Assembly: GCA_964586595.1 (NCBI GenBank)
Contig: CAZPHB010000016.1
Location: 39 to 64,038 of the forward strand
Length of the DNA stretch: 64,000 nucleotides
Source: an uncultured Flavobacteriaceae bacterium
GTDB taxonomy: Bacteria > Bacteroidota > Bacteroidia > NS11-12g > UBA955
Direction: 5' to 3'
The position numbers and the translations under genes are program-made. Positions 35,442 through 38,094 of the stretch are shown here, in pieces. A model generated the notes under the pieces. It was not told where the DNA came from. It was given only the letters and a program-made list of their open reading frames with translations, and ran no database searches. Numbering within the stretch: the stretch's first letter is position 1; every line of letters starts with the position of its first letter.

Positions 35442-36467
35442 TTACCACTTCAGGGCCTTGAGTTTCTCAGGGAACAACAGTTTGATGTGCGAACCACTGA
35501 TTTCCAGGATCCCATCGGCTTTAAAGCCGCTGAGCACCCTGATGGCAGACTCTGTGCTCGTACCGGCCATACTTGCAAGCAGTTCCCGGGAAACAGCCAC
35601 GCCGTAGCGGCTGTCGCTGTCGCTGACTGTTTCAAACAACTTCACCAAAGCTTCGGCAACCCGTTTGCGCACGGTATCATAAGCGAGCTTGAGCAGTTCC
35701 TTTTCCTTGGAGGCGATGTTGTTGCTGAGCAGTTTCACGAAATAAACCATGGTAGCGGTATCGCCGGTGATGTAGCGGAGGAAGTCATCGGACTGATACA
35801 GTTCAATCTCACAATCTTCCAAAGCTTCAGCACTTTCTTCACGCGGGTTTCCACCCATGCTGCTTACATATCCAAAGAATCCGCCGGAGCCAACAAGGTC
35901 GGTGGTATATTCTTTTCCATCCTGATTGTAGCAATACAGGCGCACCGTTCCTTTCAGCAGTTTGTACACATAAATGCTTGGATCGCCTTCGTGGTACACG
36001 GTGTCTTTGCGGGAATAATGGCGTTGATGTGTTTGGATTTCGCGGTTTGCAGCGGCCTGAACATTTGCCTGGCCCAACAAACGCTCTTTCAGGGCATCAG
36101 ATTTTTTCAGGCGATTTTCGAGGGTGCGCAGCAAATCCGTTTCTTCAAATGGCTTGGTGATGTAATCATCAGCGCCTAAACTCATTCCGAAGCGCACATC
36201 CGTTTTTTCTGTTTTGGCCGTAAGAAACACAAATGGAATGCCTGCAGTTTCCGGCCTTTGGCTCAGGATGTGCAGCACACCGTAGCCGTCGAGGCCGGGC
36301 ATCATGATGTCGCAGATGATCAGATCCGGGCGTTCGTTCAAACTCAGATCCACACCTTTCCTGCCATCTTCAGCCACCACCACCTCATAACCTGCCAGTT
36401 CAAGGATTTCAGCGGTGTTCTCTCGAACATCCACGTTGTCTTCAATGACCAGAATTTTCTTCTTCAT
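35442..36467 (-). CDS. hybrid response regulator: N-terminal receiver (REC) fused to Crp/Fnr-type cNMP-binding + HTH domain
   Basis: REC 'ILVIEDN...DLIICDIMMPGLDGY...LTAKTE'; beta-roll 'GDPSIYVYKLLKGTVRL'; HTH_Crp 'SRELLASMAGTSTESAIRVLSGFKADGIL'. Confidence 0.8.
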   Translation of the reverse strand: MKKKILVIEDNVDVRENTAEILELAGYEVVVAEDGRKGVDLSLNERPDLIICDIMMPGLDGYGVLHILSQRPETAGIPFVFLTAKTEKTDVRFGMSLGADDYITKPFEETDLLRTLENRLKKSDALKERLLGQANVQAAANREIQTHQRHYSRKDTVYHEGDPSIYVYKLLKGTVRLYCYNQDGKEYTTDLVGSGGFFGYVSSMGGNPREESAEALEDCEIELYQSDDFLRYITGDTATMVYFVKLLSNNIASKEKELLKLAYDTVRKRVAEALVKLFETVSDSDSRYGVAVSRELLASMAGTSTESAIRVLSGFKADGILEISGSHIKLLFPEKLKALKW

Positions 36468-38094
36468 CCGCGCTCAAAGGTATAAAAACTTCGAATGTTG
36501 TTCCGGTTTCGGGACTGCTGTTGCAGCTGATCTGGCCACCCATCAGTTCCAGGTACTGTTTTACGATGTGCAGTCCCAGGCCGGTTCCATCAATATTGGT
36601 CACATTCCGGGCCCTGAAAAACCGGGAAAAAAGGTTCTTCCGATCCTCCTCCGGAATGCCCATACCATTGTCGCGAACCCGCACCCTGAGCACGTTTTCT
36701 TCATGAACGGCCTCCAAAATCACCACCCCTTTCCCGGCTTCTGAATATTTAATGCCGTTGCTCAATAAGTTCAACAATACATTCCGGAATAAATCCGGAT
36801 CAAGCGTCAGGGTCAACGCTTCCGGATACTGTTTCAGCAATTGTTGTCCGGGCTTCAGGTTGAGTTCCGCATCTTCACACATTTCATCGAGCAGGGCAGA
36901 CACATTGGAAGGAACCGGCTTGTTCCGGATCAGTCCTTCTTCCAGCTTGCCCAATGACAGAAAATCGTTGAGCAATTGGTTCAGGTGTGTGATGTTCTTG
37001 CGAATTTTATGCACGTGGTCCAGCACTTTTCCTGTATTGCCTTGTTCGTTGTATCGGCGGATGAGGTCGGCTGAACTGTTGATGGTGCTCAGGGGTGTTC
37101 TGAATTCATGTGAGGCCATGCTCACAAAACGTGTTTTCAATTCACCCAGTTCCTTCTCTTTGTGCAGCGCTTTGAGCATGTCCTGCTCCGCTTGCTTGAG
37201 GTGTGTAATATTGGTTTCGATCATCAGGATGCTTTGCACCAGGTTGCGTTCCTTAATGGGCACGGCATCAATCAGAAAACAATGATCGGAGAATTCAATT
37301 TCAAAGGAACGAGGGTCGCCCTGCAGCACCTTGTTGAGGTGTTTTTCTGCCAGCTCGCGCAATTCCGGACGAAGGCGTTTCAGGTAGTTGGTACCAATGA
37401 GGAACCTCGGATCAATTCCTAAATCACTCAGGCCCTTTCCCTCTACAAAGACATAATTAAAATCGGCATCCAGGATGGTAATGGTTCCATTGGGATAATT
37501 GCGCGCAATGGTGGTGTACACCTTCTGGCTTTGCAGCAGTTGTTCTTCCGCCTTCCGGCGCAATTCCAAAGTACTTTTCAATTCTTCGGTGCGCGTTTCT
37601 ACTTCTTCGTGCAAACGTATATGGTAATGCTCTTTCAGCTCGCGCGACTGCACTTCTTCGGTCAGGTCATGAATGATGCCCACATAAAAATGCTGTCCGT
37701 GTTCTACAAAGTGGCTCACCGCCAGGCGCAGCGGGAACAGGCTGCCATCCTTGCGTTTTCCTACCACTTCCCTGCCAACACCTATAATCTTTCGCTCACC
37801 GGTTTCTTCGTAATTCCTGATGTACTGATTGTGCCTGGAATGATCCGGTTCAGGCATCAGAACATGAACATTCATTCCATGTAAGGCACCGCTTTCGTAA
37901 CCAAACATGTTCAGTGTTGCCTGGTTGCATTCTACAATCAAGCCTCTGGAATTGATCACGATGATGGCGTCAACGAGGGTGTGAAAAATCGCATTTAAAC
38001 TGAGTTCCGCCGAGGGAACCGAACTGTGCGGAGTCTCTGCTTGCATCTCCTCTTCCTTCCTCCTTTTGGTCAACGAAGATACTTGTTTCAGCAC
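36442..38094 (-). CDS. sensor histidine kinase with FixL-type heme-binding PAS domain (PAS-PAS-HisKA-HATPase)
   Basis: First PAS '[53 protein letters not shown]...[11 protein letters not shown]' closely parallels the rhizobial FixL heme pocket (LMPEPDRSRH...IIGIGR.V.GKRRDG..FP..L); H-box '[10 protein letters not shown]'; 26-nt overlap with the RR gene. Confidence 0.75.
   Translation of the reverse strand: [550 protein letters not shown]

What the first reader, a model, noticed from the sequence alone, without database searches (positions are those of the whole stretch)
35442..38094. FixL-like heme-PAS kinase paired with a REC-Crp/Fnr hybrid regulator next to the cbb3 oxidase cluster
The kinase's first PAS domain ([49 protein letters not shown]...[11 protein letters not shown]) matches the characteristic heme pocket of rhizobial FixL. 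This includes the RSRH-type proximal His region and the IIGxGRxVxGxRKDGxxFP FG-loop/G-strand. Its gene overlaps that of a response regulator whose receiver is fused directly to a Crp/Fnr cNMP-binding + HTH module. In alpha-proteobacteria the O2 signal flows FixL -> FixJ -> FixK (Crp/Fnr) -> fixNOQP/fixGHIS. Here FixJ and FixK appear collapsed into one polypeptide, sitting immediately upstream of a complete ccoISNOQPGH array. To my knowledge this condensed Fix cascade has not been characterised in Bacteroidetes.
Basis: partly seen in the sequence, partly recalled or inferred. Interest (0 to 1): 0.8.

Follow-up and report, generated by a model that had tools for sequence, protein, structure and literature searches.

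The report
Heme-PAS kinase with REC-Crp regulator
An uncultured Bacteroidota bacterium encodes a FixL-like, probably oxygen-sensing kinase next to an unstudied regulator that joins a phospho-receiver to a Crp/Fnr DNA-binding module, and conserved FNR-type DNA boxes suggest the pair directly switches on the high-affinity cbb3 oxidase and stress genes when oxygen is low.

Summary
The kinase (36442..38046/38094, minus strand) has an N-terminal PAS domain 43% identical to the BjFixL heme domain. The proximal His, the distal Arg and the FG-loop Ile-Ile are all present, followed by HisKA and HATPase_c. Its gene overlaps by 26 nt a 341-aa regulator built as Response_reg + cNMP_binding + HTH_Crp_2. 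Downstream on the same strand lie hsp20, an unknown gene, then ccoI-S-NO-Q-P-G-fixH.

New here: a 12-bp box, TGAY-N4-RTCA (the FNR/FixK-box core), lies upstream of the kinase, hsp20 (two copies 22 nt apart) and ccoI. In 17 related Bacteroidota loci plus the window, it occurs 48 times in intergenic DNA. Other spacer lengths give 1-7. In those loci 16 of 17 REC-Crp genes follow a PAS kinase that keeps the proximal His, and 8 of 17 lie within 10 kb of cco genes.

The regulator's recognition helix is FNR-type (E-x-x-I/S-R). Its cNMP pocket lacks the cAMP-contacting Arg and Glu.

The "FixJ+FixK collapsed" reading holds as function, not ancestry. The receiver is OmpR/PhoB-like, the Crp module is not specifically FixK, and the kinase core is HK853/PhoR-like.

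The family is large (about 2,000 clusters at 50% identity) and has no solved structure. I found no paper on it. I rate it a new variant of a known kind. No biochemistry was done.

The parts
36442..38046 (-). Sensor histidine kinase gene (534 aa from ATG 38046; the ORF extends to GTG 38094, giving 550 aa)
   Evidence: ORF. Domains. An identical 534-aa protein, P0121, is in public data.
37657..37995 (-). FixL-type heme-PAS domain (residues 34-146, 550-aa numbering)
   Evidence: Pfam PAS/PAS_9. BjFixL heme domain E 3.5e-29. 43% identity over 122 aa.
37831..37833 (-). Codon of the predicted proximal heme ligand, His88 (BjFixL H200)
   Evidence: Alignments. Invariant in 137 of 137 related kinases. 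Coordinates.
37771..37773 (-). Codon of Arg108 (BjFixL R220, the distal O2- and propionate-contacting Arg)
   Evidence: Arg in 130 of 137 relatives. Coordinates.
37195..37527 (-). Second, weakly PAS-like region after a coiled-coil linker (about residues 190-300)
   Evidence: PAS_4 E 0.006, below the Pfam cut-off. Present in L002, L003 and L015 but absent from the roughly 400-aa kinases.
36934..37137 (-). HisKA dimerisation/phosphoacceptor domain; His329 codon at 37108..37110 (SHEFRTPL)
36472..36801 (-). HATPase_c catalytic domain
   Evidence: E 2.9e-29, full-length match.
35442..36467 (-). REC-Crp/Fnr hybrid response regulator gene (341 aa); overlaps the kinase gene by 26 nt
36120..36455 (-). 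Receiver domain; phospho-acceptor Asp53 codon at 36309..36311; D10, T83 and K105 present
   Evidence: Invariant columns. Coordinates.
35769..36023 (-). cNMP_binding-type beta-barrel lacking the cAMP-contacting residues (CRP E72 is Tyr, R82 is Glu)
   Evidence: Pfam. Pocket segment aligned. CRP residue roles are from established knowledge.
35451..35666 (-). HTH_Crp_2 DNA-binding domain; recognition helix GTSTESAIRVLS (E306, R310)
38101..38112 (.). Box TGATATTCGTCA, 55 nt upstream of kinase ATG 38046 (predicted autoregulation). It lies in the divergent region shared with the GH3/beta-lactamase gene.
   Evidence: A box stands in the intergenic region just upstream of the kinase gene in 10 related loci: L001, L002, L010, L012, L014, L015 and L083-L085, plus one 344 nt upstream in L005.
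35412..35430 (-). Terminator-like hairpin plus T-run just after the regulator's stop codon
35393..35404 (.). Box TGATAAAGGTCA, 84 nt upstream of the hsp20 ATG
35371..35382 (.). Box TGACGCCAGTCA, 62 nt upstream of the hsp20 ATG and 22 nt from the previous box
34875..35309 (-). Small heat-shock protein (Hsp20) gene, predicted regulon member
   Evidence: Pfam HSP20. Hsp20 genes sit next to the pair in L003, L008, L009 and L016.
34149..34850 (-). 233-aa ORF with no family assignment, between hsp20 and ccoI
   Evidence: No Pfam or NCBIfam hit. No homologue in the 17 related loci.
34135..34146 (.). Box TGACCTGAGTCA, 40 nt upstream of the ccoI ATG. Its centre is about 30 nt upstream of a TAnnTTTG-like element (CAATTTTG).
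   Evidence: The promoter-element reading is by eye.
31699..34095 (-). ccoI (fixI), a P-type Cu ATPase
   Evidence: E1-E2_ATPase, HMA, ATPase-cat_bd.
31487..31702 (-). ccoS (fixS), 71 aa; overlaps the end of ccoI and the start of ccoNO
   Evidence: Sequence. Pfam FixS E 2e-17.
29341..31494 (-). Fused ccoNO (COX1 + FixO)
29141..29326 (-). 61-aa single-TM ORF in the ccoQ position
   Evidence: Assigned by position and hydrophobic segment only.
27967..29133 (-). ccoP (FixP_N + one cytochrome c domain)
26554..27954 (-). ccoG (fixG)
26110..26544 (-). fixH/ccoH-like gene
25409..26113 (-). DsbD_2 family membrane protein, last gene of the cco string
25378..25411 (.). Two one-mismatch boxes (TGAGCAATATCA at 25378, TGAGTGATGTCA at 25400), 22 nt apart, upstream of the USP gene
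24525..25340 (-). Tandem universal stress protein gene, predicted regulon member
   Evidence: Pfam Usp with 2 stretches. USP genes with boxes occur in L008 and L014, and USP genes flank boxes in L083 and L084.
24122..24505 (-). 127-aa ORF of unknown family directly after USP
   Evidence: No Pfam or NCBIfam hit. A 32%-identical homologue lies next to the REC-Crp gene in L008.

Best explanation
This is a two-component hypoxia switch. A soluble histidine kinase carries a FixL-type heme-PAS domain. By analogy with FixL, O2 bound to the ferrous heme holds the kinase off, and loss of O2 lets it autophosphorylate on His329. The phosphoryl group passes to Asp53 of the co-translated regulator. That regulator's OmpR-like receiver sits in front of a Crp/Fnr body: a beta-barrel that no longer binds cAMP, a long dimerisation helix and an HTH.

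Phosphorylation is proposed to do what cAMP does for CRP, or the [4Fe-4S] cluster for FNR: set the dimer in its DNA-binding form. The dimer then binds TGAY-N4-RTCA boxes, often two boxes 22 nt apart. It activates its own operon, hsp20, the ccoISNOQPGH operon for the high-affinity cbb3 oxidase, and USP genes. In relatives the boxes also precede genes for lactate dehydrogenase-like, CBS, PNPOx-like, RIC-like and DoxX proteins.

Shown here: domain content, conserved catalytic and heme-pocket residues, gene pairing, box enrichment and box positions.
Inferred: heme binding, O2 as the signal, the direction of control, and that this regulator is the protein that binds the boxes.
For: Sensor:
- The PAS domain matches BjFixL and RmFixL heme domains at E 1e-26 to 1e-29.
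- The proximal His is kept in 137 of 137 related kinases, R220 in 130, I215 in 117, I216 in 123, Y207 in 130.

Phosphorelay:
- HisKA and HATPase_c are complete.
- The receiver's D10, D53 and K105 are invariant, and T83 is Thr or Ser in every sequence, across 18 plus 17 sequences.
- The genes overlap or lie within 25 nt of each other in 15 of 16 loci.
- The kinase is adjacent in 16 of 17 genome loci and in 3 of 3 further loci.

DNA target:
- The recognition helix is E-x-x-I-R, and E-T-V/I-S-R in Sphingobacteriales, matching FNR's E209/S212/R213 pattern (FNR residues from established knowledge).
- In the 64-kb window, all 4 intergenic perfect boxes fall in the three intergenic regions of this cluster. 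About 0.42 are expected in all 6.4 kb of intergenic DNA. The 2 other perfect matches lie inside long ORFs.
- Across the window plus 17 loci, spacer 4 gives 48 intergenic boxes. Spacers 0-10 otherwise give 1-7, and Markov resampling gives 3.8 +/- 2.0.
- Three further loci give 15 boxes in 7.9 kb of intergenic DNA.
- Ten of 11 Bacteroidota control loci without a REC-Crp gene have 0-3 boxes per roughly 20 kb.
- No other Crp/Fnr gene lies in the window or the 17 loci.

Output:
- Boxes precede ccoI, ccoNO or ccoG in the window, L002, L005, L012 and L014.
- cco genes lie within 10 kb in 8 of 17 loci.

Effector pocket: the positions of CRP E72 and R82 are Tyr/His/Val and Glu/Asp/His.
Against: - No experiment: heme binding, ligand specificity, phosphotransfer and DNA binding are all unmeasured.
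- BjFixL R206 and H214, which contact the heme propionates, are replaced here by N (with R one residue earlier) and K.
- Some paired kinases (L001-L003, L005, L008, L016) lack the distal Arg. The signal may therefore differ within the family.
- Only about half of the loci have cco genes nearby.
- The boxes are a generic FNR-type core. A Crp/Fnr protein encoded elsewhere in the genome could use them. The window covers only 64 kb of the genome.
- The predicted structure has pTM 0.45, so it says nothing reliable about how the receiver contacts the Crp body.
- My gene calls for the intergenic statistics were crude (longest ATG ORFs).
Confidence: 0.68

Rival explanations
1. The heme-PAS kinase senses another diatomic gas or the redox state (NO, CO, or ferric/ferrous switching) rather than O2. 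The regulon would then be a nitrosative or redox stress response that happens to include cbb3 oxidase.
For: Heme-PAS and heme-GAF sensors differ in ligand preference (DosS versus DosT; established knowledge). A RIC/ScdA-like di-iron repair gene carries a box in L006. Propionate-contact residues R206 and H214 differ from BjFixL. Several paired kinases lack the distal Arg.
Against: The window kinase keeps the residues FixL uses to discriminate O2: R220, I215, I216 and L236, with I238 as Val. The most consistent targets are those of micro-oxia regulons: the high-affinity oxidase and its maturation genes, USP, Hsp20 and a fermentative dehydrogenase.
Confidence: 0.12
2. The TGAY-N4-RTCA boxes belong to a separate, classical Crp/Fnr regulator encoded elsewhere in the genome. 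The REC-Crp protein binds a different sequence, and its position beside cco is only loosely functional.
For: The box core is the generic FNR/FixK core. Bacteroidota genomes encode many Crp/Fnr paralogues (for example a cNMP_binding gene at the edge of L083). A box-rich island exists without a REC-Crp gene in L022.
Against: A box stands directly upstream of the kinase-regulator operon in most loci, the usual sign of autoregulation. No other Crp/Fnr gene occurs in the window or in 17 loci of about 20 kb each. The regulator's recognition helix has the FNR-type E...R pattern expected for a TGA half-site. Box density is about three times higher in REC-Crp loci than in Bacteroidota control loci, and nearly all control boxes come from one locus.
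Confidence: 0.1
3. The regulator takes two inputs. Phosphorylation of the receiver and a small ligand in the cNMP-like barrel are both needed, so oxygen is only one of two signals.
For: The barrel is well conserved and passes the Pfam cNMP_binding cut-off. Other Crp/Fnr proteins bind heme, 2-oxoglutarate or c-di-GMP in or near this domain (established knowledge; CooA, NtcA and Clp appear among the hits).
Against: The cAMP phosphate- and ribose-contacting residues are missing. Pocket residues vary among family members. FixK-type proteins work without any ligand (established knowledge).
Confidence: 0.1

Closest known systems
FixL-FixJ-FixK cascade of Bradyrhizobium and Sinorhizobium
   Same: The heme-PAS sensor has the same proximal His, distal Arg and FG-loop (43% identity to BjFixL PAS). 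The kinase is soluble. The final output is a Crp/Fnr-type protein acting on TTGA-N6-TCAA-like boxes in front of fixNOQP/fixGHIS (cco) genes.
   Different: Two proteins instead of three: there is no FixJ (no LuxR/GerE HTH) and no separately transcribed fixK. The receiver is OmpR/PhoB-like and the kinase core is HK853/PhoR-like. The heme-PAS is the first domain, not the second. The phylum is Bacteroidota. Position -1 of the box prefers A rather than T.
hFixL-FxkR-FixK of Rhizobium etli and R. leguminosarum (PMC7888657)
   Same: It shows that FixL-type sensors can be rewired to a non-FixJ, OmpR-type regulator upstream of the Crp/Fnr step. Targets include fixNOQP.
   Different: FxkR is a conventional OmpR-family protein that activates fixK transcription, so there are still three tiers. 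Here the OmpR-like receiver is covalently joined to the Crp/Fnr module.
FNR of E. coli and FnrN/FnrL
   Same: A single Crp-family polypeptide converts low O2 directly into binding of TTGAT-N4-ATCAA-type boxes and activates high-affinity oxidases. The recognition helix has E...(S/I)R.
   Different: FNR senses O2 itself through an N-terminal [4Fe-4S] Cys cluster. Here that position is taken by a receiver domain, and sensing is delegated to a heme kinase.
DosS/DosT-DosR (DevRS) of Mycobacterium tuberculosis
   Same: A heme-based kinase plus a response regulator control a hypoxia regulon rich in USP proteins, a small heat-shock protein, and CBS and PNPOx-like proteins (compare).
   Different: The Dos sensors use GAF domains and DosR is NarL/LuxR-type with a different box. 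That system gives no control of a cbb3 oxidase.
ResDE acting on Fnr in Bacillus (mentioned in PMC8510549)
   Same: A two-component system lies upstream of a Crp/Fnr regulator in the oxygen response.
   Different: ResD activates fnr transcription, and Bacillus Fnr still has its own Fe-S cluster. There is no domain fusion.

Membership tests
FixL (heme-PAS oxygen sensor kinase) | PAS domain with a proximal His on the F-alpha helix in the PEPDxSRH context | tested here: met
   His88 aligns with BjFixL H200. It is invariant in 137 of 137 relatives.
FixL (heme-PAS oxygen sensor kinase) | FG-loop/G-beta residues I215, I216 and R220, and pocket residues L236 and I238 | tested here: met
   I, I, R, L and V are found at these positions. 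R206 is N and H214 is K (partial departures).
FixL (heme-PAS oxygen sensor kinase) | Whole-protein match to the curated FixL equivalog model (NF041777) | tested here: not met
   165.8 bits against a cut-off of 850. The best stretch covers only residues 27-151.
FixL (heme-PAS oxygen sensor kinase) | Cognate partner is FixJ (receiver + LuxR/GerE HTH) | tested here: not met
   The partner is Response_reg + cNMP_binding + HTH_Crp_2.
FixL (heme-PAS oxygen sensor kinase) | Binds heme b; O2 binding inhibits autophosphorylation | not testable with these tools
   Needs a UV-vis spectrum and kinase assays on purified protein.
FixJ | NarL-class receiver followed by a GerE/LuxR HTH | tested here: not met
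   No GerE domain. The best receiver relatives are OmpR/PhoB family. No FixJ is among the top 60 PDB or top 25 NCBIfam hits.
Crp/Fnr superfamily (includes FixK) | cNMP_binding-type beta-barrel + long dimerisation helix + C-terminal HTH_Crp | tested here: met
   Pfam E 1.4e-18 and 9.8e-13. The AlphaFold model shows the barrel at 146-225, a helix at 237-281 and the HTH at 294-317. Foldseek gives E 1e-17 to Crp structures.
FixK subfamily | Specific relatedness to FixK/FixK2 | tested here: inconclusive
   FixK2 (4I2O) scores E 3.3e-9, behind 19 other Crp-family sequences. No phylogeny was made.
FNR/FixK-type DNA recognition | E-x-x-S-R recognition helix and TTGA-N6-TCAA boxes at target promoters | tested here: met
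   The helix is E-S-A-I-R here, and E-T-V/I-S-R in L010, L012 and L017. TGAY-N4-RTCA is enriched about 10-fold in intergenic DNA of the loci. Binding by this protein was not tested.
cAMP-binding CRP | Phosphate-binding cassette residues (CRP G71-E72, R82-S83) | tested here: not met
   The aligned positions read G-Y and E-S-A here. Arg is absent at this position in all 17 family members examined (CRP residue roles from established knowledge).
Two-component response regulators | Receiver with the acidic pocket (window D9 and D10), phospho-acceptor Asp, conserved Thr/Ser and Lys | tested here: met
   D10, D53, T83 and K105 are present. D10, D53 and K105 are invariant and T83 is Thr or Ser throughout.

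The most novel reading that the evidence does not exclude
The heme-PAS kinase / REC-Crp pair is the main oxygen-sensing pathway of aerobic and micro-aerobic Bacteroidota (Cytophagales, Chitinophagales, Sphingobacteriales, Flavobacteriales, Saprospirales-type MAGs). It is a one-step version of the Fix cascade. A receiver domain replaces the ligand or Fe-S switch of a Crp/Fnr protein, which binds paired FNR-type boxes 22 nt apart. It drives a DosR-like hypoxia/dormancy regulon: cbb3 oxidase, USPs, Hsp20, fermentative dehydrogenase and the box-rich island seen in L022. This would define a new, structurally uncharacterised class of response regulator with about 2,000 clusters at 50% identity.
Probability: 0.5. 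Interest if true: 0.72.

Novelty: new variant of a known kind. Interest (0 to 1): 0.6.

Why it matters
How non-proteobacterial aerobes sense oxygen is poorly mapped. For Bacteroidota, which dominate particle-attached marine, soil, rhizosphere and wastewater niches with steep O2 gradients, I found no described regulator of the cbb3 oxidase.

This locus gives a concrete, testable candidate: a sensor, a regulator, a DNA box and a predicted regulon. Cultured carriers are available for genetics.

It also raises a mechanistic question: how does an OmpR-like receiver allosterically drive a Crp/Fnr body? No solved structure spans both modules. The answer would add a new output class to response-regulator biology.

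The simple heme-kinase-to-single-regulator-to-12-bp-box layout could also serve as a compact O2-responsive switch for engineering Bacteroidota.

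Tried and rejected
1. The strict FNR consensus TTGATNNNNATCAA with up to 2 mismatches was not enriched in the window (43 found, 34 +/- 6 expected). Only the shorter core TGAY-N4-RTCA, restricted to intergenic DNA, is informative. Over the whole window it is also unremarkable (6 found, 4.1 expected). 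The signal lies in where the boxes sit.

2. An unbiased count of 4- and 5-mer palindromes over intergenic regions was dominated by A/T-rich words. TGAT-N4, TGAC-N4 and ATGA-N6 were the only non-A/T-rich ones.

3. The sigma-70 promoter scan is uninformative for Bacteroidota (5 found, 12 expected).

4. Ten full-text literature searches and targeted reads of a CRP/FNR superfamily survey, a CRP/FNR meta-regulon paper and a Flavobacterium genome paper found no description of REC-Crp regulators or of FixL-like sensing in Bacteroidota. The Galperin 2006 response-regulator classification was not available, so an earlier census listing of this architecture cannot be excluded.

5. The genome-contig scan used receiver-domain peptides. 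Only 17 of its 80 loci were true REC-Crp genes. The rest served as controls.

6. The AlphaFold model gave good domains but an unreliable inter-domain arrangement (pTM 0.45, linker 132-141 below pLDDT 50). I draw no mechanism from it.

7. hyp233 and hyp127 could not be assigned to any family even at E up to 10.

8. I considered that the PAS domain is a recent transfer from Proteobacteria. The 120 best kinase relatives that carry names are all Bacteroidota, so I dropped it. No tree was built.

Full report
WHAT IS THERE

On the minus strand the window carries one co-oriented string of genes:
- kinase, 38046/38094 to 36442
- regulator, 36467 to 35442
- hsp20, 35309 to 34875
- an unassignable 233-aa ORF, 34850 to 34149
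- ccoI, 34095 to 31699
- ccoS, 31702 to 31487
- fused ccoNO, 31494 to 29341
- a 61-aa ccoQ-like ORF, 29326 to 29141
- ccoP, ccoG, fixH and a DsbD_2 membrane protein
- a tandem USP gene, 25340 to 24525
- a 127-aa ORF of unknown family, 24505 to 24122

The kinase and regulator genes overlap by 26 nt. A terminator-like hairpin follows the regulator's stop codon. The organism is an uncultured Bacteroidota bacterium. Identical proteins occur in MAGs labelled 'Bacteroidota bacterium', annotated only as 'PAS domain S-box protein', 'hypothetical protein', 'CheY-like chemotaxis protein' or 'response regulator'.

THE KINASE

Pfam finds one strong PAS domain (residues 34-146), HisKA (320-387) and HATPase_c (432-541). 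Between PAS and HisKA lie a coiled-coil segment and a weak second PAS-like region (PAS_4, E 0.006).

The PAS domain's best matches among solved structures are the heme domains of B. japonicum FixL (E 3.5e-29) and S. meliloti FixL (E 2.9e-26), ahead of E. coli DosP. Identity to BjFixL is 52 of 122 residues.

Using BjFixL numbering, which I checked against the sequence (H200 falls in SRHD), the window protein keeps V188, M192, H200, Y203, Y207, I215, I216, G217, R220, V222, L236 and G251. It changes R206 to N (with R at 205), H214 to K, M234 to L, I238 to V and F249 to Y.

Across 137 related kinases the proximal His is invariant. R220 is kept in 130, I216 in 123 and Y207 in 130.

The rest of the protein is not FixL-like. 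The transmitter's best structural relatives are HK853, WalK, PhoR and KdpD types. The NCBIfam FixL equivalog scores 166 bits against a cut-off of 850, through the PAS domain only. Some automatic pipelines already call homologues 'sensor kinase FixL'.

THE REGULATOR

Response_reg (5-116), cNMP_binding (149-233) and HTH_Crp_2 (268-339) all pass the Pfam cut-offs.

The receiver has D10, D53, T83 and K105. In 35 family members D10, D53 and K105 are invariant and T83 is Thr or Ser. Its closest relatives are OmpR/PhoB-family receivers: RpaA, MtrA, PhoP and PhoB.

The Crp body's closest solved relatives are T. thermophilus Crp (4EV0) and P. gingivalis 2GAU. FixK2 is a mid-list hit at E 3e-9.

The positions of the cAMP contacts in E. 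coli CRP (E72 and R82, from established knowledge) are Tyr and Glu here. They are never Arg in the 17 relatives examined. There is no FNR-type Cys cluster; the receiver occupies that N-terminal position.

The recognition helix reads T-E-S-A-I-R, and A-T-E-T-V/I-S-R in the Sphingobacteriales members. That is the FNR E209/S212/R213 pattern.

An AlphaFold model (mean pLDDT 80, pTM 0.45) shows four elements: a receiver whose last helix extends to residue 136, a disordered stretch at 132-141, an eight-stranded barrel, and a 45-residue helix leading to the HTH. No PDB chain among the top Foldseek matches covers both halves.

HOW COMMON AND HOW CONSTANT

A full HMMER scan of 1.84 billion cluster representatives finds 2,154 proteins at E <= 1e-30. 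About 140 of the best 150 are full-length, single-stretch proteins of roughly 340-360 aa. The best 120 hits in the 90% clusters all have the three-domain architecture. Where named, all are Bacteroidota.

The genome scan returned 17 loci with full or partial REC-Crp genes, from Cytophagales, Flavobacteriales, Chitinophagales and Sphingobacteriales.
- Sixteen of the 17 have a PAS kinase immediately upstream. The gap ranges from -26 to +25 nt in 15 of those 16.
- All 16 kinases keep the proximal His.
- Only some keep the classic IIGxGR loop: the window, L010, L012 and L017. Others read MGxG(R/M/L/I).
- cco genes lie within 10 kb in 8 of the 17 loci. Hsp20 and tandem-USP genes are frequent neighbours.
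- Three more loci fetched by exact protein look-up show the same pairing, with USP, DoxX or CcoI next door. One of them is the cultured Aurantibacillus circumpalustris.

THE DNA BOX

An unbiased palindrome count over intergenic DNA singled out TGAT-N4-ATCA and TGAC-N4-GTCA.

In the window, TGAY-N4-RTCA occurs six times. Two copies lie inside long ORFs. The other four are the only intergenic copies, and all lie in this cluster:
- 55 nt before the kinase ATG
- 84 and 62 nt before hsp20
- 40 nt before ccoI

From intergenic base composition, 0.42 copies are expected in all 6.4 kb of the window's intergenic DNA. Two one-mismatch copies lie upstream of the USP gene.

Over the window plus 17 loci (50 kb of intergenic DNA), spacer 4 gives 48 boxes. 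Every other spacer from 0 to 10 gives 1-7, and first-order Markov resampling gives 3.8 +/- 2.0 with a maximum of 10.

The boxes lie mostly 20-130 nt upstream of start codons of these genes:
- the kinase
- ccoI, ccoNO and ccoG
- hsp20 and USP
- genes for an LdhA-like dehydrogenase and for CBS, PNPOx-like, RIC/ScdA-like, cytochrome c and DoxX proteins

The three extra loci add 15 boxes in 7.9 kb of intergenic DNA.

Pairs exactly 22 nt apart recur: in the window (twice, once degenerate), L006, L011 and L083 (twice). That is two helical turns, as expected for two dimers on one face of the DNA.

Ten of 11 Bacteroidota control loci without a REC-Crp gene have 0-3 boxes. The exception, L022, has 11 boxes around ppsA, a stand-alone receiver, baeRF, RtcB, an M50-CBS protease and USP. 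It looks like another island of the same regulon.

No second Crp/Fnr gene occurs in the window or in the 17 loci.

HOW IT MOST LIKELY WORKS

The chain from sensor to output is inferred. By analogy with FixL (established knowledge), the deoxy heme-PAS releases kinase activity. The phosphoryl group moves from His329 to Asp53. The phosphorylated receiver, probably by dimerising as OmpR/PhoB receivers do, sets the Crp body in its DNA-binding form. The dimer then occupies the boxes and activates transcription.

At ccoI the box centre lies about 30 nt upstream of a CAATTTTG element that resembles the Bacteroidota -7 motif TAnnTTTG (my reading). That would place the box near -42, the class II position used by FNR. 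This last point is a by-eye inference.

The predicted outcome is induction, at low O2, of the high-affinity oxidase with its maturation genes and of a stress/dormancy set that resembles the mycobacterial DosR regulon.

I put 0.85 on heme binding, about 0.7 on O2 as the signal, about 0.75 on this regulator being the box-binding protein, and 0.68 on the whole chain.

COMPARISON WITH THE KNOWN

The system works like FixL-FixJ-FixK but is not a member of that set. It fails the FixL equivalog threshold and has no FixJ-type output domain. Its receiver is OmpR-like, and its Crp body is not specifically FixK.

It is closer in spirit to two known departures. One is hFixL-FxkR-FixK, where an OmpR-type regulator replaces FixJ (PMC7888657). 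The other is FNR, where one Crp-family protein links O2 to the box. This system combines the two: the kinase senses, and a receiver replaces FNR's Fe-S switch on the Crp body.

Neither a broad computational survey of the CRP/FNR superfamily (PMC3590769; no mention of receiver fusions) nor the other nine searches produced a description of it.

VERDICT

The finding is a new variant of a known kind. It is widespread, unstudied, structurally unprecedented in the PDB, and now has a predicted operator and regulon. It is not categorically new, since every part belongs to a known family. Nothing biochemical has been shown. Interest: 0.6.

Noticed in passing
L022:5400-18200: A locus from an uncultured Flavobacteriaceae MAG has no REC-Crp gene but carries 11 TGAY-N4-RTCA boxes in 20 kb. 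The boxes surround genes for PEP synthase, a stand-alone receiver, a baeRF-family protein, an M50-CBS protease, RtcB, USP, a PfkB kinase and DUF302. It may be a second, dormancy-like island of the same regulon.
   Followed up: partly
window 35371-35404 and 25378-25411; L006 11155/11177; L011 17426/17448; L083 4700/4722 and 6979/7001: Boxes repeatedly occur as pairs whose starts are exactly 22 nt apart (two helical turns). This suggests cooperative binding of two regulator dimers.
   Followed up: partly
window 34149-34850 (-): A 233-aa ORF between hsp20 and ccoI has no Pfam or NCBIfam match, even at E up to 10, and no homologue in the 17 related loci. Whether it is a real gene is untested.
   Followed up: partly
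window 24122-24505 (-): A 127-aa His- and Glu-rich ORF directly after the USP gene has no family assignment. A 32%-identical homologue lies next to the REC-Crp gene in L008. Unassigned ORFs of 126-133 aa occupy a similar position in L083, but their similarity to this ORF was not checked.
   Followed up: partly
window 38191-41085 (+): A 964-aa fusion of a glycoside hydrolase family 3 domain (NagZ-like) and a beta-lactamase/transpeptidase-like domain is transcribed divergently from the kinase. It shares the box-containing intergenic region.
   Followed up: no
window 27967-29133 (-): CcoP is 388 aa, with a long multi-helix N-terminal extension before FixP_N (191-229). Pfam detects only one cytochrome c domain, whereas proteobacterial CcoP is dihaem.
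   Followed up: no
window 1-2000: The first 2 kb have 42% G+C, against about 50-57% in the rest of the window.
   Followed up: no
window 42055-45042 (-) and 57586-59808 (-): Two large secreted-looking proteins end in a motif resembling the gliding/T9SS C-terminal sorting domain (...NAFSPNGD/VFTPNGD...NRWG...), consistent with a Bacteroidota origin. Read by eye; not checked with an HMM.
   Followed up: no
L083 4786-6900 (-): In Aurantibacillus circumpalustris a second, 704-aa multi-PAS kinase near the pair has double boxes both upstream (6979/7001) and just downstream (4700/4722, which is upstream of the neighbouring HTH_5 gene). This hints at a regulatory hierarchy among kinases.
   Followed up: no
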